Below, piece by piece: positions 25,284-32,298 of a stretch of 64,000 nt of DNA; position 1 is the stretch's first letter; every line of letters begins with the position of its first letter. Location: assembly GCA_025060135.1 (NCBI GenBank), contig JANXCY010000002.1, forward strand, positions 42,623 through 106,622, written 5' to 3'. The position numbers were made by a program, and so were the translations under genes. This DNA comes from Anaerolineae bacterium. GTDB lineage: Bacteria > Chloroflexota > Anaerolineae > B4-G1 > DUEL01. Under the pieces are notes generated by a model that was not told the origin of the DNA, did no database searches, and saw only the letters and a program-made list of their open reading frames with translations.

Positions 25284-25583
25284 ATGAGAGAACCGAAACC
25301 GACAGACACGGCCCGGCTTCACGCGGTGGTGTCGGGCATTGTCCAGGGAGTGAACTTCCGCTATTACACCGTCCGGCGGGCCCGGGCCCTGGGCCTGACG
25401 GGCTGGGTGGCCAATCGCCCGGATGGGACGGTAGAGACTGTTGCCGAGGGCCCCCGGGCGGCCCTGCGGGAGTTTCTGAACTTTCTCCACGAGGGGCCGC
25501 CCGCTGCTCACGTTACCCACGTTGCCGTTCAGTGGGAAGAGCCGCGAGGCGAATTTGCTGACTTCCGGATTATCTACCTATGA
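25284..25583 (+). CDS. acyP: acylphosphatase
   Basis: [14 protein letters not shown]...[12 protein letters not shown] acylphosphatase signatures. Start at ATG 25284 inside the longer tracked ORF. Confidence 0.85.
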
Positions 25584-26815
25584 CCCAGAACCGGGAACGG
25601 CTGGCCTGGATCATTCTGCTGGTCTCCTTTACCCTCTGTGTGGGTCTGGCGGTGGGCGTGCCGCTGGGTGTCCGGCAGTTCCTGCGGATGGCCACCCGCG
25701 CACAGCCCATCCTGCTGCAGCCCTTGCATGGAACACCGGGCCTGCAGCGCGGTGGACACGGCGAATTCATCGCCCTTCAGAGTCCCACTTGGGACGTCCC
25801 GGCGGGCAGTTTCCTGGTTACCGACAGCGCGGCCCAGGCCCTCCTGACCTTCCACGCGCCCGCCTCTGGGTCCGAAGTCGTGGCGACGGTCCAGGTCTAC
25901 GGCGACACCCGGCTGCGCTTCCAATCCGCCCGTTCCCCGCGATTTGGCCTCAGCTCGCTCCCCCACCACGTCGGCCTGCGAGTGGAATCCGGGCGGGTGC
26001 GGATCACTGTCTCCCCGGCGGGTGGACGGAGAACGGTGGCCAAACTCCATACCCCCCATCTCACTGCGGAACTGACGGCGGGCAGTTATGAGGCGCGCGT
26101 TTACGGTCCCTTCACCGAATTCATCGTCCGCGAGGGGGATGCAAAGGTAGTCTCCGCTGGAGGGTCCGTCGTCTCCCTCAACGACAACCAGCGCACCATC
26201 GCCCAGGCCGGCCCGGCACCGCTGGAAGCGCTCCCTACCGCACGCAACCTGCTGATCAACGGCGACTTTCGCCAGCCGCTGGAAGTGGGCTGGGAGACCT
26301 ATACCGTAGAAGTCAGTACCATTCAGCCTCCCGCTTATCCGATCACCGTCCCGGCCACTGTTCAGACCACCACCTTTGCGGGACGTCCGGCGGCCCGTTT
26401 CTTCCGGGAAGGCATCGGCCACGCCGAAGTGGGCATCCGGCAGACGCTGAACCAGAACGTGCAAGACCTCGCCTCTCTGATCCTCCACCTCAACGTGATG
26501 GTGCAGAGCCAGAGCCTGCCCGGCTGCGGCTCACGCGGCTCCGAATGTCCCATCATCGTCCGGATCGACTATCAGGACGTTTTTGGGGGAGACCAGACCT
26601 GGTACCATGGCTTCTTCTCTTCCCCCCGGGCAGAAACGGACCCTTTGTACTGGTGGAGTGATCAGATTCCTTTTCAAACCTGGGTCTCTTATGACTCCGA
26701 AAACCTCATGCAGAGCGGCGCACCTCCGGCTGTCATCAAGTCGGTTACCATCTACGCCTCCGGCCACTCCTTTGACGCGCTGGTTACTGAGGTAGAGTTG
26801 CTGGCGCAGGAGTAA
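25580..26815 (+). CDS. hypothetical membrane-anchored protein
   Basis: N-terminal TM helix, no recognisable domain. Overlaps acyP by 4 nt and abuts the decarboxylase gene. Confidence 0.5.
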
Positions 26816-27837
26816 TGGAAGCCATCCGCGTCTATCCGGATTCCTCCATGTCCGAACTCCGGGCCACCGCTGAGGCTGGCGCCAATATCGCGCTGACCAA
26901 GTACTGGGGCAACGCCGACCCTGACCTGCGCATCCCGGCCAACGATTCGGTCTCCATCACCCTGGACTGCACCCGCACGGTTACCACCGTTGCCTTTCAG
27001 CCCGACCGGCCAGAGGATGAGATCACGGTGGACGGCCGGCTACTGACCGGCCCGGCCCGGGAGCGGGTATCCCACCATTTGGACCTTCTCCGGGAACGGG
27101 CAGGCGTCCCCTGGCGCGCGCGGGTCGTCTCCCGGAACAACTTTCCGGCCGGCGCGGGGATTGCGGCTTCCGCTTCCGGCTTCGCCGCGCTCACCCTGGC
27201 CGGCGCGGCCGCCCTGGGCCTGGATCTGTCCCCCCGCGATCTGAGCGTTCTCGCCCGACGGGGCTCCGGCTCCGCTGCCCGCTCCATCTTCGGGGGATTC
27301 GTCCTCCTGCACACTGGTGCCCGGGACGAGGACGCCTTCGCCGAACCCCTCTACGGTCCCGACTGGTGGGACGTCCGGGACCTGATCGTCGTCGTCTCCC
27401 GGGCCGAGAAGGCGGTCCCTTCCAGCGAGGGGCACCTTTTGGCGCCGACCAGTGCCCTCCACCGGGCCCGGGTGGCCCGGGTGGCCGAACTGAACCGGCA
27501 GTTACTGGATGCCCTGGCCCGCCGGGATTTTGCCGCGCTGGGCCATGCCGCCGAGGAGGACGCACTCCTGATGCACGCTGTGATGATGACTTCCCGTCCG
27601 TCCCTTATCTACTGGCTCCCGGAGACGGTGGCCCTCATCCGCCGGGTACAGGCCCTCCGGGCAGAGGGCATCCCCGCCTACTTCACCATAGACGCCGGGC
27701 CCAACGTTCACGTCCTGACCCTCCCGGCCTACGCCGACCACCTCCAGGCCGACCTGCGGGCCCTGCCCGGCGTCCAGGCCGTTATCTCCTGCCGTCCCGG
27801 CCCGGGAGCCTCCGTCATCCCGCATCCTGGAGAGTAG
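26815..27837 (+). CDS. mvaD: diphosphomevalonate decarboxylase (GHMP kinase family)
   Basis: IALTKYWGN, NFPAGAGIAASASGFAAL GHMP/MVD motifs. Confidence 0.85.
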   Translation: MEAIRVYPDSSMSELRATAEAGANIALTKYWGNADPDLRIPANDSVSITLDCTRTVTTVAFQPDRPEDEITVDGRLLTGPARERVSHHLDLLRERAGVPWRARVVSRNNFPAGAGIAASASGFAALTLAGAAALGLDLSPRDLSVLARRGSGSAARSIFGGFVLLHTGARDEDAFAEPLYGPDWWDVRDLIVVVSRAEKAVPSSEGHLLAPTSALHRARVARVAELNRQLLDALARRDFAALGHAAEEDALLMHAVMMTSRPSLIYWLPETVALIRRVQALRAEGIPAYFTIDAGPNVHVLTLPAYADHLQADLRALPGVQAVISCRPGPGASVIPHPGE

Positions 27838-27840
27838 CCG

Positions 27841-28947
27841 ATGCGTCCCGCGACCTGCGCCCTGCAACCTGCGGCTTGCGACCTGCGCTCTGCGGCCTGC
27901 GACTTGCGACGCGCGTCCTGCTTCCTGCTCCTTGTATCCTGTTTCCTGCTTCCCCTTTCCGGCTGTATCCCTTCCGACTCCACTCCGGCAACAGGCCAGG
28001 CGACCTACATCCCGCCCACTTGGTTGCCGCTGGCAACGGCCACCCCATCCCCAACGGCGACACCGGCCCCGGCGCTGACACCGCTTCCCACTGCCACCCC
28101 GATGCCAACGGCCACCCCGATCCCAACGCCCACTTTCACCCCCCGGCCAACGGCGACGCCGACGCCGACGCCAACGCCCACTCCCATCTGCGCGGGTCTC
28201 TCCGGTCGGATCGAGGTCGGCTCCTATCCCAGCCGGGTCCTGGGCCGGGCTGCAACGTACCGGATTTATCTCCCTCCGGGCTACGACTCCTCGCCCGTGT
28301 CCTACCCGGTGCTCTATCTCCTCCACGGTTATCCATACAACGAGACCCACTGGGACCGGTTAGGGGTGGATGAAGCCGCCGAAGCGGGCATCTGCTCGGG
28401 GGCTTACCCGCCCTTCATCATCGTTATGCCCAACTGCGACCCGGCCCCGGATGGGATTTTCGTCCGCACCAGCGGCGGAGACCACTCAGTAGAAGGGTTG
28501 ATCGTGAACGAACTTATCCCCCACATCGACCAGACCTACCGGACGTGGGGCAGCCGGGAGGGACGGGCGATTGGGGGCATCTCCCGGGGCGGTGTCTGGT
28601 CGCTGGAGATCGCCTTCCGCCGTCCGGACCTCTTTGCCACGGTGGGTGCACACAGCCCAGCCCTCTCGGTCAACTATCCGTTGCCCGTCTACGATCCCTT
28701 TAACCTACTGACGCAACCGGCGGTGGCCTCCCTGCGCATCTGGCTGGATGCCGGGGATACGGACTGGGCCTGGGTGGGCACCGACCGGATGCATCGGGCA
28801 TTGGTGGAAAAGGGGATTCCCCATGAATACGCCGTGGGTGAAGGCGGCCACACCGATGATTACTGGTCGCGGATGATCCCGGCGTATCTGGCCTTCTACA
28901 CGGCCGCCTGGGTGGGCGAGTTGCCTACTCCCACACCTGGGCCGTGA
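27841..28947 (+). CDS. secreted lipoprotein esterase (putative esterase / enterochelin-esterase-like alpha/beta hydrolase) with PT-rich linker
   Basis: Lipobox LSGC, TPTPTPTP linker, LYLLHGY...GGISRGGVWSL esterase family motifs. Probable true start TTG at 27904 (M-RRASCFLLLVSCFLLPLSGC). Confidence 0.75.
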   Translation: MRPATCALQPAACDLRSAACDLRRASCFLLLVSCFLLPLSGCIPSDSTPATGQATYIPPTWLPLATATPSPTATPAPALTPLPTATPMPTATPIPTPTFTPRPTATPTPTPTPTPICAGLSGRIEVGSYPSRVLGRAATYRIYLPPGYDSSPVSYPVLYLLHGYPYNETHWDRLGVDEAAEAGICSGAYPPFIIVMPNCDPAPDGIFVRTSGGDHSVEGLIVNELIPHIDQTYRTWGSREGRAIGGISRGGVWSLEIAFRRPDLFATVGAHSPALSVNYPLPVYDPFNLLTQPAVASLRIWLDAGDTDWAWVGTDRMHRALVEKGIPHEYAVGEGGHTDDYWSRMIPAYLAFYTAAWVGELPTPTPGP

Positions 28948-30509
28948 TCCGAAAACACTATATACCATTCTCTGAACGGAGCAATGACACCCAGATGACC
29001 ACTCTACCTGTATCCCAATCTGCTCTTCCTGGCTATCGCCGGTTCTTCTTCCGGGGCCTGGTCCTCCACCCGATCTGGCGGATCATTATCTATCTGATCG
29101 TGATGGTGGTCGTGGAACTGGTCGCAGGCTTCACAATCGGGATTCTCTATGGCCTGGTGCTTTTCCTTACAGGAGCCAGTGCGCAGGAGGTCCTGGATGC
29201 CCTGACGGTCGGAATGGCTTCCAGCCCGCTACTGTTGATGGTGGGCATCTCCCGGCTGGTCATCGCGCTGGGGCTGGCCCTGCTGATGAGTCGTTTCCTG
29301 GATCGGGAGCCCATAGAGACCATGGGGCTGGAGCCGACTCGCGGCGGGAAGGATACGGCGGTCGGCCTGGCGTTGGGAGCGGGGACGATGGTGCTGATCG
29401 GAGCCGTCCTGCTGGCCCTGAACCCGCAGCCCTCCTGGCCGGGCCGGGGGGATGGGTGGAAGTTTCTGCTGGACGCGGTGGCCCTCCTTCCGGCCGCAGC
29501 GGCTGAGGAGATCGCCTTCCGGGGATACCTTCAGCGCGCCCTCACCACCTGGCGCGGCCCGATAGTCGGGGTCCTGGTTCCCTCCGTCCTTTTCGCCCTG
29601 TTTCACGCGCTGAACCCGAACGTCTCTCCCCTGGCGCTGGTCAACATCGCGCTGGCGGGAGCGGTCTTCGCAGTGGCGGCGGAGCGGACCGGCACCCTCT
29701 GGCTACCCATCGCCTACCACTACGCCTGGAACCTCACCCAGGGCCCGGTCCTGGGGCTTCCGGTGAGCGGGATGGCCTGGAATGGCCTGCTGGCGCTGCC
29801 AGTGGGCGGCCCTTCCTGGCTCACCGGAGGTGCCTTCGGGCCAGAGGGAGGACTGCTCTCCACTGCGGTTCTGGCCCTTAGTCTGCTTCCACTCTGGGCC
29901 CTGACCCGCTGCCCGGCCAGCCTATCCGGGGTGGCCCGCCGTCAGCGCGCGCAGGCGGAACGGGAGGGCGCTCTCCCCTTCCAGCACCACACCCTCACTG
30001 TCTCGGCCCCATTTTTTGACGACTTTGTCTGCTCCCTCCGTCATCGGGCCCGACAGGGAGAGGTCGTCCTGCTCCTGCGCCGACCGGACGGCCAGGTCCT
30101 TCTGCACAGCAAGTCCTTTTATCCGGCGGGGGTGTTCCGCCTACCCAGCGGAGGGGTGCTCCCTGGCGAATCGGTACTGGACGCGGCCCGGCGGGAAGCA
30201 CAGGAGGAAACCGGGCTGGACCTGCGGGATCCCCGTCCGCTGGGCCTGCTCAGCGTTACCTTCCAGCGAGGCTGGAATCGCCGCTACTTCCACTCTTGGC
30301 TGGTCCTGGCCGATGTGGAAGGAGATCCCCGGCCCGGTGATTCCGGGGAACAGATCAGCGGCTTCCGCTGGGTGCCACCGGAGGCGCTGGCGGAAGTGGC
30401 GGCCCAGTTGCGGGCCCTACCTTCCAGATGGGCGGACTGGGGCCGCTTCCGTGCCCTGGCCCACGAGGTCGCCCTTCGCTGGATAGGAACGGAAATCGCC
30501 ACGAATTAA
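28944..30509 (+). CDS. fusion protein: CPBP-family intramembrane metalloprotease (CAAX protease/Abi) + C-terminal NUDIX hydrolase
   Basis: CPBP motifs EEIAFRGYLQ, FALFHALNP, HYAWNL in a multi-TM N-half. Nudix box GGVLPGESVLDAARREAQEETGL in the C-terminal 150 aa. Confidence 0.75.
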   Translation: MIRKHYIPFSERSNDTQMTTLPVSQSALPGYRRFFFRGLVLHPIWRIIIYLIVMVVVELVAGFTIGILYGLVLFLTGASAQEVLDALTVGMASSPLLLMVGISRLVIALGLALLMSRFLDREPIETMGLEPTRGGKDTAVGLALGAGTMVLIGAVLLALNPQPSWPGRGDGWKFLLDAVALLPAAAAEEIAFRGYLQRALTTWRGPIVGVLVPSVLFALFHALNPNVSPLALVNIALAGAVFAVAAERTGTLWLPIAYHYAWNLTQGPVLGLPVSGMAWNGLLALPVGGPSWLTGGAFGPEGGLLSTAVLALSLLPLWALTRCPASLSGVARRQRAQAEREGALPFQHHTLTVSAPFFDDFVCSLRHRARQGEVVLLLRRPDGQVLLHSKSFYPAGVFRLPSGGVLPGESVLDAARREAQEETGLDLRDPRPLGLLSVTFQRGWNRRYFHSWLVLADVEGDPRPGDSGEQISGFRWVPPEALAEVAAQLRALPSRWADWGRFRALAHEVALRWIGTEIATN

Positions 30510-30537: not shown

Positions 30538-32298
30538 ATGAGCATGACCAACGGATTGGTGCGACCGTCCTCTCCACGCCAGACCGCTCAGGCCACCTTT
30601 CCGGACGGGCGGACATGGGAGGCGCCGGTCGGGACGCCGGTGGAGGCCTACATACGCGCTGCCTATCCCGACCATCCCGTCCCTATCATTGCCGCGCTGG
30701 TAGATGGAGAACTGCGAGAATTAACCTACCCGCTCCAACGGGATGCTTGCGTGATCCCGATCTTCCTTTCCGATTCGGACGGAGTGCGTATTTATCGGCG
30801 CTCCCTTTCCTTCCTGCTGGTTACTGCGGTCTCTGAACTCTTTCCGGAGGCCCAAGTGGTCATAGACTACTCCGTCCCCTTCGGTGGATTCTACTGCCGG
30901 GTACTGAACCGCGATCCCTTCTCGGCAGAAGAATTGGGAAAGATTGAAGCCCATATGCGGCGCATAGTGGAAGAGGATGTACCCATCTGTAAGGAGCGGG
31001 TGCCGGTGGAAGACGCCCTGGCCCTCTTCGAGGCGCGCGGCCAGCAGGATAAGGTACGACTCTTCTCCCGCCGCCGGAAAGACTACCTCATCCTCTATCG
31101 CCTGCGGGCCTATCGGGACTACTTTCATGGGTACATGGTGCCTTCTACAGGATACCTGAAATACTTCGCCCTCCATCCTGCGTTGCCCGGATTCATCCTC
31201 CAGTATCCCCGGCGCCACTGGCCCACCCAACTGCTTCCCTATACCGATTCCCCCCGCTTGCGCGCCGTTTTCCAGGAATACGGAGAATGGCTGCGATTGC
31301 TGGGTGTGGAGGACGTGGGAAGCCTTAACGATGCCATTGAGCGGGGGCGCATCCAGGAGATTATCCTGGTTTCTGAAGCCCTGCACGAGGAGCGTATTGC
31401 CCAAATTGCCCACGACATCGCCGACCAGCATCATCGGGTCCGGCTGGTGCTCATCGCTGGGCCCTCCGCTTCGGGTAAGACGACCTTCTCTAAGCGGCTC
31501 TCCATCCAGTTGCTGGCTCATGGCATCCAGCCGTTTCCGATTGCCTTGGACGACTATTTCGTGGACCGAGAGAAGACCCCCCGAGATGAGCAGGGGCAAT
31601 ATGACTTTGAGGCGTTGGAGGCGCTGGACCTGGCCCTCTTCAACCAGCAATTGCTGGCCCTGATGGACGGACAGGAGGTTACCCTGCCCCGATTTAATTT
31701 CCACACCGGTACCCGCCAGAAAGGGCCTACCGTGCGGCTGACGGCTGACCATGTTATCATCGTGGAGGGCATTCACGGATTAAACCCCAACCTGGTGCCG
31801 ATGGTCCCGCCGGAGCGGATTTTCCGCATCTACGTCTCGGCACTCACCCAACTGAACCTGGACCGGCATAACCGGGTGCCGACGACGGACACCCGCCTGA
31901 TCCGACGCATCGTGCGAGATGCCATGTACCGGGGGTACACTGCCGAGGAGACACTGGATCGATGGGAAAGCGTACGGCGGGGGGAGCAGCGGCACATCTT
32001 CCCCTACCAAGAAAACGCCGACGTGATGTTCAACTCCGCGCTGGTCTACGAACTGGCGGTACTGAAGCCGCTGGTAGAGCCTCTCCTGCGGCAGGTGGAG
32101 ACCCCCGGCCCGCGTCGGGTAGAAGCGAAGCGGCTGCTGGCTTTTCTGGAGTGGTTCACCTCCTGCCCTCCAGACATGGTGCCCGATAACTCCATCCTGC
32201 GGGAATTCATTGGCGGCTCCATTCTGCAGGATTACTTACCGATAGGAGTGCGCGAGAAACCAGACCCAGTCGTTATCTCGCGGTGCACAGGCTGTTAA
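30538..32298 (+). CDS. uridine-kinase/phosphoribulokinase-family nucleoside kinase with N-terminal ThrRS-like TGS domains
   Basis: N-terminal TGS-like region. P-loop GPSASGKTTFSKRL and PRK/UDK-family C-half. Confidence 0.7.
   Translation: MSMTNGLVRPSSPRQTAQATFPDGRTWEAPVGTPVEAYIRAAYPDHPVPIIAALVDGELRELTYPLQRDACVIPIFLSDSDGVRIYRRSLSFLLVTAVSELFPEAQVVIDYSVPFGGFYCRVLNRDPFSAEELGKIEAHMRRIVEEDVPICKERVPVEDALALFEARGQQDKVRLFSRRRKDYLILYRLRAYRDYFHGYMVPSTGYLKYFALHPALPGFILQYPRRHWPTQLLPYTDSPRLRAVFQEYGEWLRLLGVEDVGSLNDAIERGRIQEIILVSEALHEERIAQIAHDIADQHHRVRLVLIAGPSASGKTTFSKRLSIQLLAHGIQPFPIALDDYFVDREKTPRDEQGQYDFEALEALDLALFNQQLLALMDGQEVTLPRFNFHTGTRQKGPTVRLTADHVIIVEGIHGLNPNLVPMVPPERIFRIYVSALTQLNLDRHNRVPTTDTRLIRRIVRDAMYRGYTAEETLDRWESVRRGEQRHIFPYQENADVMFNSALVYELAVLKPLVEPLLRQVETPGPRRVEAKRLLAFLEWFTSCPPDMVPDNSILREFIGGSILQDYLPIGVREKPDPVVISRCTGC

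What the first reader, a model, noticed from the sequence alone, without database searches (positions are those of the whole stretch)
28944..30509. CPBP (CAAX-protease/Abi) intramembrane metalloprotease fused to a NUDIX hydrolase
The N-terminal multi-TM half carries all three CPBP motifs (EEIAFRGYLQ, FALFHALNP, HYAWNL). The C-terminal 150 aa carry a complete Nudix box (GGVLPGESVLDAARREAQEETGL). CPBP/Abi proteins are best known in bacteriocin immunity and abortive-infection contexts. A covalent fusion to a nucleotide-diphosphate hydrolase is an uncommon architecture. It could couple a membrane event to hydrolysis of a nucleotide signal or NAD/ADP-ribose derivative, which is reminiscent of defence-system logic.
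Basis: partly seen in the sequence, partly recalled or inferred. Interest (0 to 1): 0.55.

Follow-up and report, generated by a model that had tools for sequence, protein, structure and literature searches.

The report
Membrane CPBP protease fused to Nudix
This is a real but rare gene from a small group of uncultured Chloroflexota in which a membrane-embedded protease is joined to a cytoplasmic pyrophosphate-cleaving (Nudix) enzyme; it sits among ordinary housekeeping genes with no sign of a role in phage defence, and what it acts on is still unknown.

Summary
ORF 28944-30509 (+) encodes a 521-aa protein (504 aa from ATG 28995). It has an 8-TM Rce1-like/CPBP domain with all three catalytic motifs and a C-terminal Nudix domain with a perfect Nudix box.

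It is not a frameshift artefact. 54 protein clusters from independent assemblies carry the same single ORF, down to 38% identity, and both catalytic sets are invariant in 32 aligned members.

The architecture is rare: about 5 fused and 2 split cases among 185,579 species genomes, all Anaerolineae, Thermoflexus or other Chloroflexota MAGs.

The two halves are linked by more than the fusion. In L020 they are separate genes overlapping by 4 nt. Syntenic loci exist with and without the CPBP part.

The defence reading is not supported: no PADLOC hits, no viral copies, and housekeeping neighbours in every context, with neighbours conserved only locally.

Best reading: a bifunctional housekeeping membrane enzyme. 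It is a new variant of known families, of moderate interest.

The parts
28944..30509 (+). Whole CPBP-Nudix fusion ORF (521 aa from GTG 28944; 504 aa if started at ATG 28995, as in the NCBI protein P0001)
29070..29903 (+). Eight-helix transmembrane CPBP/Rce1-like domain (aa 43-320); N-in/C-in topology
29505..29534 (+). CPBP motif 1, EExxxR (E188, E189, R193), in TM4
   Evidence: invariant in 32 fusion proteins
29592..29618 (+). CPBP motif 2, FxxxH (F217, H221), in TM5
   Evidence: invariant
29718..29735 (+). CPBP motif 3, HxxxN (H259, N263), in TM7
   Evidence: invariant
29826..29852 (+). GG.FGPEGG motif in the extracytoplasmic loop before TM8. It marks a CPBP subfamily and also occurs in standalone Anaerolineae CPBPs, so it is not specific to the fusion.
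29922..29957 (+). Arg-rich cytoplasmic linker helix (aa 327-338, RRQRAQAERE) after TM8. It is homologous to the N-terminus of the standalone 199-aa Nudix relatives.
29979..30506 (+). Cytoplasmic Nudix domain with an N-terminal strand-helix extension and a long C-terminal helix (W..WG.FRA..H conserved)
30150..30218 (+). Nudix box GGVLPGESVLDAARREAQEETGL (aa 403-425). G403, G404, E409, R417, E418, E421 and E422 are invariant in the fusion family.
27841..28947 (+). Upstream gene: secreted or lipoprotein-like esterase (PF00756). Its TGA stop overlaps GTG 28944. It is a neighbour only in relatives at least about 78% identical.
30538..32298 (+). Downstream gene: 586-aa protein with a uridine-kinase/PRK-family domain and an N-terminal region resembling ThrRS. 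It is a neighbour only in the same close clade.

Best explanation
The gene encodes a real, selectively maintained bifunctional membrane enzyme of a small Anaerolineae/Thermoflexales lineage.

Shown:
- The N-terminal half is an 8-TM CPBP (Rce1-like) intramembrane glutamic endopeptidase. It keeps all three motifs found in proteolytically active family members.
- The C-terminal half is a Nudix pyrophosphohydrolase with an intact catalytic box, located in the cytoplasm directly after TM8.
- The two parts are functionally coupled. They occur fused in most members, as separate genes overlapping by 4 nt in at least one lineage, and in two CPBP lineages only 35-38% identical to each other.

Inferred:
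- The CPBP domain holds the Nudix active site at the inner face of the membrane. This parallels other bacterial CPBP-fold proteins that partner or scaffold envelope enzymes (SpdC-SagB, SpbR-SpsB, LnsAB).
- The Nudix domain therefore acts on a membrane-proximal nucleoside-diphosphate-X or lipid-linked pyrophosphate compound, while the protease half cleaves a membrane-embedded or lipidated peptide substrate in the same housekeeping envelope or secretion process.
- It is not a defence system.

The substrates of both halves are unknown.
For: - Domains and motifs.
- Both catalytic sets are invariant in 32 fusion proteins at 37-81% identity. The Nudix core is also invariant in 37 sequences that include standalone relatives.
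- 54 two-domain clusters come from independent assemblies.
- L020 has CPBP (317 aa) and Nudix (201 aa) as separate ORFs sharing TTGA. It is a contig whose k127 name suggests a short-read assembly, and there is no homopolymer at the junction.
- L019, L020 and P0055 form a second CPBP lineage only 35-38% identical to the window CPBP, yet it is also Nudix-linked.
- Topology from loop charges: N-in/C-in.
- AF2 model: pLDDT 90.9, pTM 0.89.
- Literature: EExxxR, FxxxH and HxxxD/N mark active CAAX-type proteases and are degenerate in the non-catalytic SpdC, LnsB and SpbR (PMC12260438). SpdC scaffolds the hydrolase SagB and may bind the lipid-pyrophosphate carrier (bioRxiv 10.1101/2020.05.21.109470).
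- Housekeeping contexts, no PADLOC match and no viral copies.
Against: - No neighbour is conserved across the whole family, so the pathway is not defined.
- Both halves also exist alone in close relatives: P0054 is CPBP only at 54% identity, and P0266 is Nudix only at 52-54%. The partnership is therefore not obligatory.
- The scaffolding precedents act on the outer face of the membrane and use degenerate CPBPs. Here the partner is cytoplasmic and the protease motifs are intact.
- The interdomain geometry could not be inspected, because neither coordinates nor PAE were available. The fixed docking is inferred from pTM alone.
- The trees are neighbour-joining without support values.
Confidence: 0.55

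Rival explanations
1. Defence or abortive-infection module. A membrane event sensed or executed by the CPBP/Abi domain is coupled to Nudix hydrolysis of a nucleotide signal or of NAD/ADP-ribose.
For: The Pfam family was historically named Abi, and some members act in bacteriocin immunity (established knowledge). The Nudix substrate is unassigned, so NAD/ADPR-type substrates are not excluded. NudC, NUDT12 and ADPRase are among the flat list of structural matches.
Against: The fusion protein has no PADLOC match, and its neighbours have only two marginal P-loop hits. No relative was found in 2.9 million viral contigs. In about 12 distinct contexts the neighbours are housekeeping genes: MVD, esterase, uridine-kinase-like, PGM, FabH, PIG-L, SBP, GNAT and GDH. 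There is no compositional anomaly around the gene. The gene tracks the lineage (close relatives keep the same gene order) and shows no sign of patchy, mobile-element-like spread.
Confidence: 0.05
2. Isoprenoid link. The Rce1-like cavity binds a polyprenyl chain and the Nudix domain hydrolyses a prenyl or polyprenyl diphosphate (or a lipid-PP-linked precursor) at the cytoplasmic membrane face.
For: - Diphosphomevalonate decarboxylase lies two genes upstream in the window and in L001.
- Rce1 recognises prenylated substrates, and SpdC was proposed to bind the lipid-pyrophosphate carrier (bioRxiv 10.1101/2020.05.21.109470).
- Nudix enzymes that hydrolyse geranyl diphosphate exist and appear among weak matches: 6ypb and NUDX1.
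Against: The MVD neighbour is seen only in the window and L001, which are more than 78% identical. The prenyl-PP Nudix matches are no better than dozens of others. The intact protease motifs are not explained by a pure lipid-binding role.
Confidence: 0.1
3. Peptide or secreted-protein processing module. The CPBP half processes a lipoprotein or peptide handled by the adjacent Opp-type binding protein or the RimI-like N-acetyltransferase. The Nudix half supplies an accessory cytoplasmic activity, for example turnover of CoA or a nucleotide cofactor.
For: - SBP_bac_5 lipoprotein genes lie directly upstream, with a gap or overlap of at most a few nt. This is seen in L004 and L094, in L019, and for the standalone Nudix in L008/L009 and the P0266 locus. 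The two SBP types are only 26% identical to each other.
- A standalone CPBP ends an Opp operon.
- A RimI-like GNAT lies directly downstream in L006, L092 and L093.
Against: Neither neighbour is present in the window clade, L003, L005 or L020. Anaerolineae carry many SBP_bac_5 genes, and no background frequency was computed. No mechanistic link between a Nudix enzyme and peptide import is established.
Confidence: 0.15
4. The Nudix domain is a non-catalytic ligand sensor, as in NrtR-type regulators, and gates the intramembrane protease.
Against: The catalytic Nudix-box residues (R417, E418, E421, E422 and E409) are invariant across the fusion family, and the matching positions are invariant across its standalone relatives. 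That is the expected pattern for an active hydrolase; sensor Nudix domains typically have degenerate boxes (established knowledge).
Confidence: 0.1
5. The fusion is an assembly or frameshift artefact joining two adjacent genes.
For: Split versions exist (L019, L020), so two-gene forms occur in nature.
Against: The single ORF is found in 54 clusters from independent assemblies and pipelines, down to 38% identity, with a conserved linker sequence. If anything the artefact risk runs the other way: the L019 split sits next to a G6 homopolymer.
Confidence: 0.01

Closest known systems
Type II CAAX prenyl endopeptidase Rce1 / MmRce1 (PDB 4CAD); CPBP family PF02517
   Different: Only 17% identical. 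There is no evidence of prenylated substrates in this organism. It carries a C-terminal cytoplasmic Nudix enzyme domain that Rce1 lacks.
S. aureus SpdC (LyrA) in the SagB-SpdC complex (PDB 6U0O), with the related partner-type CPBPs SpbR and LnsB
   Different: SpdC, SpbR and LnsB have degenerate catalytic motifs and act non-covalently with partners on the outer face. Here the motifs are intact, the partner is covalently fused (or translationally coupled), and it is cytoplasmic and a Nudix enzyme.
Myxosortases (MrtX, MrtS, MrtJ, MrtC, MrtP): CPBP proteases that process C-terminal sorting signals
   Same: Weak NCBIfam matches over the CPBP core (MrtS 45 bits, MrtJ 33 bits). All are catalytically competent bacterial CPBPs.
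   Different: All scores are far below the family cut-offs (130, 75, 100 and higher). No CTERM-type substrates were identified. Myxosortases have no Nudix domain.
Standalone Nudix proteins of about 199 aa in Anaerolineae and Armatimonadota (e.g. P0266, P0122, P0305), all uncharacterised
   Same: 43-54% identical to the Nudix half over its full length, including the N-terminal extension and the C-terminal W..WG.FRA..H helix. Some lie in loci syntenic with fusion or split loci.
   Different: They have no membrane domain. Their function is equally unknown and they carry only generic 'MutT/NUDIX' names.
Characterised Nudix enzymes (NUDT6, Bdellovibrio NudF, NudC/NUDT12, Ndx1, ADPRase, RppH)
   Same: Nudix alpha/beta/alpha fold and the canonical Nudix box.

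Membership tests
CPBP / Rce1-like intramembrane glutamic endopeptidases (PF02517) | Match to the family HMM above the curated cut-off | tested here: met
   74.1 bits against a cut-off of 22.4, aa 174-264
CPBP / Rce1-like intramembrane glutamic endopeptidases (PF02517) | Motif 1 EExxxR, motif 2 FxxxH and motif 3 Hxxx(N/D), which mark active members (PMC12260438, PMC11980579) | tested here: met
   E188, E189, R193; F217, H221; H259, N263. All are invariant in 32 homologues.
CPBP / Rce1-like intramembrane glutamic endopeptidases (PF02517) | Polytopic 8-TM fold like MmRce1 and SpdC | tested here: met
CPBP / Rce1-like intramembrane glutamic endopeptidases (PF02517) | Endopeptidase activity | not testable with these tools
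   Needs biochemistry
Nudix hydrolase superfamily (PF00293) | Match to the family HMM above the curated cut-off | tested here: met
   75.8 bits against a cut-off of 21.1, aa 373-487
Nudix hydrolase superfamily (PF00293) | Nudix box GX5EX7REUXEEXGU | tested here: met
   Exact regex match at aa 403-425. The core residues are invariant.
Nudix hydrolase superfamily (PF00293) | Alpha/beta/alpha Nudix fold | tested here: met
A specific Nudix subfamily (NudC/NADH pyrophosphatase, ADPRase, RppH, MutT, CoA pyrophosphatase, NudI and others) | Score at or above the NCBIfam equivalog cut-off, or a subfamily signature motif | tested here: not met
   The best Nudix equivalog hit is 28 bits against a cut-off of 200. 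NudC scores 22 against 158 and RppH about 20 against 116-139. There is no SQPWPFPxS after the box (read directly from the sequence). The structural ranking is flat.
Known anti-phage defence systems (PADLOC-DB v2) | Match to a defence-system protein model | tested here: not met
   The fusion protein matches 0 families. Neighbours have only marginal P-loop hits.
Known anti-phage defence systems (PADLOC-DB v2) | Location in defence islands or mobile elements, or presence in phages | tested here: not met
   About 12 contexts are all housekeeping. No viral relative was found.
Myxosortase-type CPBP sorting proteases (NCBIfam Mrt models) | Score at or above the family cut-off | tested here: not met
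   MrtS 45 against 130, MrtJ 33 against 75, Mrt_core 30 against 100, MrtP 20 against 250, MrtC 20 against 195

The most novel reading that the evidence does not exclude
The CPBP cavity binds the polyprenyl tail of a lipid-pyrophosphate carrier or lipid-linked envelope precursor, as was proposed for SpdC. The fused cytoplasmic Nudix domain cleaves its pyrophosphate bond. That would make this a previously unknown class of membrane-integrated Nudix lipid-pyrophosphate hydrolase, coupled to an intramembrane protease. More generally, the fused and split gene pairs would be the first 'Rosetta stone' assigning a cytoplasmic enzymatic partner to a catalytically intact bacterial CPBP.
Probability: 0.1. 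Interest if true: 0.7.

Novelty: new variant of a known kind. Interest (0 to 1): 0.38.

Why it matters
Prokaryotic CPBP/CAAX-like proteins are very widespread but mostly have no known function (PMC11980579). The few that are understood either process peptides or act as partners that position other envelope enzymes.

This fusion points to a functional partnership that I did not find described in the literature searched. A catalytically intact CPBP is joined to a cytoplasmic Nudix pyrophosphatase, the same pair also occurs as overlapping genes, and syntenic loci exist with and without the CPBP half.

The partnership is directly testable because the Nudix domain is soluble. If its substrate turned out to be lipid-linked or membrane-proximal, that would extend both the range of Nudix substrates and the known roles of CPBPs.

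If instead it is simply a membrane-tethered housekeeping nucleotide hydrolase, the finding is a minor curiosity confined to one lineage of uncultured Chloroflexota.

Tried and rejected
1. Frameshift artefact: rejected.

2. Defence system: PADLOC, viral contigs and about 12 gene neighbourhoods gave nothing.

4. A neighbour conserved across the whole family: all-against-all comparison of flanking ORFs found only clade-local neighbours. These are esterase plus PRK in the window clade, GNAT in three loci, and SBP_bac_5 in several.

5. L039 looked like a stretched fusion but has no Nudix match, so it was dropped.

6. L019 as a clean example of a split pair was downgraded. A G6 homopolymer at the junction of a closed-chromosome MAG means one extra G would restore a 542-aa fusion.

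7. P0264 and P0265 look like standalone Nudix proteins nested inside the fusion clade. They come from contigs of 1146 and 729 nt, so they are probably fragments of fusions, and I did not use them.

8. The AFDB50 fold search for other full-length fusions was unavailable.

9. A search seeded with the outlier fusion P0055 found no further fusion lineages.

10. Literature searches for CPBP or CAAX together with Nudix found no paper on this architecture.

11. The search with the Nudix half alone did not return the fusion proteins. This appears to be a limitation of the word index, so counts from that search are not a census.

Full report

Yes. The ORF listing gives a single ORF at 28944..30509 on the + strand, 521 aa with a GTG start. 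Pfam finds two domains well above their curated cut-offs:
- Rce1-like (PF02517), aa 174-264, 74.1 bits against 22.4.
- NUDIX (PF00293), aa 373-487, 75.8 bits against 21.1.

- EEIAFRGYLQ, aa 188-197
- FALFHALNP, aa 217-225
- HYAWNL, aa 259-264
- GGVLPGESVLDAARREAQEETGL, aa 403-425

The last string matches the canonical Nudix box GX5EX7REUXEEXGU exactly.

One refinement concerns the start. An identical NCBI protein (P0001, annotated 'MAG: Anaerolineae bacterium, NUDIX domain-containing protein') is 504 aa, so it starts at M18 (ATG 28995). GTG 28944 overlaps the TGA stop of the upstream esterase gene (ccGTGAtc). The start is therefore ambiguous, which does not affect the finding.

**2. Is it a frameshift artefact?**

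No. The indexed homologue search returned 54 clusters at 90% identity (P0001-P0053 and P0055) that carry both Pfam domains in one protein of about 475-540 aa. They span 100% down to 38% identity and come from NCBI, JGI, ENA and Logan assemblies.

I aligned 32 of them (A1), using numbering from GTG 28944. The linker is conserved (…TRRPAT…RRQRA.VE.RFGPLP..HH.L.V…). Both catalytic sets are invariant:
- CPBP half: E188, E189, R193, F217, H221, H259, N263.
- Nudix half: G403, G404, E409, R417, E418, E421, E422.

Also invariant are a GG.FGPEGG motif (aa 295-303) and a C-terminal W..W…RA..H motif.

**3. How common is it?**

It is rare and confined to one lineage.
- An exhaustive phmmer search of 1.84 billion representatives at 50% identity gave 10,671 hits. 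Among the best 150, only two are full-length two-domain representatives (P0048, P0055), plus one fragment spanning both domains (P0052). The rest are CPBP proteins of about 300 aa or Nudix proteins of about 200 aa.
- A scan of one genome per species (185,579 species) found the two-domain arrangement in L012, L013 (= L001), L014, L015 and L016. It found split forms in L019 and L020. All are Anaerolineae, Anaerolineales, Thermoflexus or 'Chloroflexota' MAGs. The other roughly 70 loci kept are CPBP-only.
- Seeding a search with the outlier P0055 revealed no further fusion lineages.
- No relative occurs in the viral contig collection.

It is also already auto-annotated in public databases. JGI calls it 'membrane protease YdiL (CAAX protease family)/8-oxo-dGTP pyrophosphatase MutT'. 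Two literature searches found no paper that discusses it.

**4. Anatomy**

The AlphaFold2 model built from A1 is confident: mean pLDDT 90.9 and pTM 0.89. It shows, in order:
- eight long helices;
- a short Arg-rich helix (model residues 311-322, aa 327-338);
- an alpha/beta/alpha Nudix domain with an N-terminal strand-helix extension and a long C-terminal helix.

Loop charges give a clear positive-inside pattern:

| Segment | K+R count |
|---|---|
| Loop aa 76-93 | 0 |
| Loop aa 222-228 | 0 |
| Loop aa 270-303 | 0 |
| N-terminal segment | 6 |
| Segment after TM8 | 5 |

The topology is therefore N-in/C-in, and the Nudix domain is cytoplasmic. This is an inference from the sequence, not an experiment.

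- The Foldseek list is equally flat.
- PDB sequence matches are weak (best E 7.5e-8).
- No NCBIfam equivalog comes near its cut-off.

The substrate class of the Nudix half therefore cannot be assigned.

I could not inspect the coordinates or the PAE. That the two domains dock in a fixed way is inferred only from the high pTM.

**5. Evidence that the two halves belong together**

(a) Split forms. In L020 a 317-aa CPBP ORF and a 201-aa Nudix ORF share the tetranucleotide TTGA, with the start codon overlapping the stop. L020 is 40% identical to the window protein, and its contig name (k127) suggests a short-read assembly. No homopolymer lies in the 30-nt stretch where an indel could fuse the ORFs.

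L019 shows the same layout with GTGA. However, it is a closed-chromosome MAG and the junction follows a G6 run. One extra G would give a 542-aa fusion, so I do not rely on L019.

(b) Two CPBP lineages. Neighbour-joining trees (no support values) put L019, L020 and the fused P0055 in a CPBP lineage only 35-38% identical to the window's CPBP. That lineage is also Nudix-linked. The Nudix halves fall into three sub-clades that each contain CPBP-linked members.

(c) Syntenic presence and absence.
- L019 has SBP_bac_5, then CPBP, then Nudix. L008/L009 have SBP_bac_5 followed directly by Nudix with a 4-nt overlap. The SBPs are 70% identical, the Nudix proteins 64%, and the upstream permease-M28 fusion and downstream sortase are the same.
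- L094 has SBP_bac_5, fusion, GH1. The P0266 locus has SBP_bac_5, Nudix, GH1.
- Conversely, P0054 is a main-clade-like CPBP (54% identical) with no Nudix domain.

The partnership is therefore recurrent but not obligatory.

**6. Genomic context**

In the window the gene is flanked by:
- a diphosphomevalonate decarboxylase (26815-27837);
- a secreted-type esterase (27841-28947);
- a 586-aa protein of the uridine-kinase/PRK family (30538-32298);
- an ABC sugar transporter;
- further out, GH3, a Na/H exchanger, a radical-SAM protein and 2-oxoacid:ferredoxin oxidoreductase subunits.

This order holds only in relatives at least about 78% identical: L001, L012, L014 and L015. Other members sit in different settings:

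| Neighbour | Loci |
|---|---|
| PIG-L | L003 |
| FabH/KAS | L005 |
| PGM upstream and GNAT downstream | L006 |
| GNAT | L092, L093 |
| SBP_bac_5 | L004, L094 |
| Glutamate dehydrogenase and a hybrid kinase | L020 |

None of these is a defence or mobile-element context. PADLOC finds nothing for the fusion protein, and base composition is unremarkable.

Two local regularities are worth recording:
- SBP_bac_5 lipoprotein genes lie directly upstream in two non-orthologous forms, only 26% identical to each other.
- A RimI-like GNAT of 281-282 aa lies directly downstream in three loci, with 57-64% identity among them. It scores 68.5 bits against TIGR01575, below the 86.4 cut-off.

**7. Most likely mechanism**

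What is shown:
- an intramembrane CPBP with every motif that distinguishes active CAAX-type proteases (EExxxR, FxxxH, HxxxD/N; PMC12260438);
- a Nudix domain with an intact, invariant catalytic box;
- a cytoplasmic position for the Nudix domain;
- recurrent genetic coupling of the two halves.

What is inferred comes from the bacterial CPBP literature. Members of this fold often act with a partner enzyme at the membrane:
- SpdC scaffolds the glucosaminidase SagB and was proposed to bind the lipid-pyrophosphate carrier (bioRxiv 10.1101/2020.05.21.109470).
- SpbR binds and inhibits the signal peptidase SpsB, and LnsB partners LnsA (PMC12260438).
- MrtX cleaves lipidated sorting signals (PMC11980579).

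By analogy, I propose that the CPBP half anchors and orients the Nudix active site at the inner membrane face. There it would act on a membrane-proximal NDP-X or lipid-linked pyrophosphate, while the protease half remains active on a membrane-embedded substrate in the same housekeeping envelope or secretion process.

I put about 0.8 on the shown part: a real, bifunctional, cytoplasmic-Nudix, non-defence protein. I put much less on the specific scaffolding idea, for about 0.55 overall.

There are real differences from the precedents. Their CPBPs are degenerate, non-covalent and act on the outside. This one is intact, fused and paired with a cytoplasmic enzyme.

**8. Rivals**

- Defence (about 0.05): contradicted by the contexts, PADLOC and the viral scan.
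- Isoprenoid-diphosphate hydrolysis (about 0.10): attractive because of Rce1's prenyl specificity, the MVD gene nearby and the existence of prenyl-PP Nudix enzymes. But the MVD neighbour is seen only in the window and L001, and the structural matches are unspecific.
- Link to peptide or lipoprotein processing (about 0.15): rests on the SBP_bac_5 and GNAT neighbours, for which no background frequency was computed.
- Sensor-type Nudix (about 0.10): disfavoured by the invariant catalytic box.
- Artefact (about 0.01).

**9. Comparison with what is known, and novelty**

Each half passes the membership tests of its superfamily: HMM score, motifs and fold. The protein fails the tests for every specific subfamily I could check, including the myxosortases, NudC, ADPRase, RppH and MutT.

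It is best called a new variant of known kinds. It is an uncharacterised domain architecture, and the matching two-gene operon form, joining a catalytically intact CPBP to a Nudix hydrolase.

**10. Verdict**

Interest is moderate at 0.38. The finding gives a concrete, testable partner for one subgroup of the poorly understood bacterial CPBPs. Against that, it is confined to a small lineage of uncultured Chloroflexota, no substrate is known, and a mundane 'membrane-tethered housekeeping hydrolase' remains fully possible.

Noticed in passing
window 27842-27921: A heptamer tandem repeat (TGCGACC)n of about 11 copies, also scored with 14- and 28-nt periods. It lies directly after the MVD stop codon and inside the first ~27 codons of the esterase ORF. 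Esterase homologues align only from residue 116 onward, so the annotated start may be wrong and the repeat may be intergenic.
   Followed up: partly
L004 6032-7999; L094 3058-5034; L019 5925-7880; L008 4148-6004; P0266 locus: SBP_bac_5 (Opp-type) lipoprotein genes lie immediately upstream of the fusion, the split pair or the standalone Nudix. They come in two forms only 26% identical to each other. L019 compared with L008, and L094 compared with the P0266 locus, are syntenic pairs that differ by presence or absence of the CPBP part.
   Followed up: partly
L006 9539-10387; L092 2013-2861; L093 6497-7342: A RimI-like GNAT acetyltransferase of 281-282 aa (57-64% identical among the three) lies directly downstream of the fusion in three main-clade loci. 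Its stop/start is adjacent to or overlaps the fusion gene.
   Followed up: partly
L093 4005-4955: A 316-aa fusion of a NudC-like zinc-ribbon Nudix domain with a GNAT domain sits immediately upstream of the CPBP-Nudix gene. This is a second unusual Nudix fusion in the same operon-like cluster.
   Followed up: no
L019 42-3821 (and L008 1-2092): A 1259-1335-aa protein that fuses two ABC-importer permease domains (BPD_transp_1) to an M28 peptidase domain. It is followed by a conserved protein of about 590 aa with no Pfam or NCBIfam match.
   Followed up: no
L019 8973-8987: The apparent CPBP/Nudix split in this closed-chromosome MAG follows a G6 homopolymer. One extra G would give a 542-aa fusion, so the split may be an assembly error.
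   Followed up: yes
L095 1250-2852: A CPBP 54% identical to the window's membrane half ends without any Nudix domain. It is followed by AGGAGG and a second, 186-aa CPBP paralogue.
   Followed up: partly
window 30538-32298: A 586-aa protein with a C-terminal uridine-kinase/PRK-family domain and an N-terminal region that weakly matches the ThrRS N-terminus (TIGR00418, aa 89-212). It is conserved directly downstream of the fusion in the close clade only.
   Followed up: no
window 26815-27837 and 25580-26815: The mevalonate-pathway decarboxylase passes the classical MVD model (247 bits against 171) but is far below the phosphomevalonate-decarboxylase model (224 against 475). It is preceded by a conserved 411-aa ORF with no Pfam match, also present in L001.
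   Followed up: no
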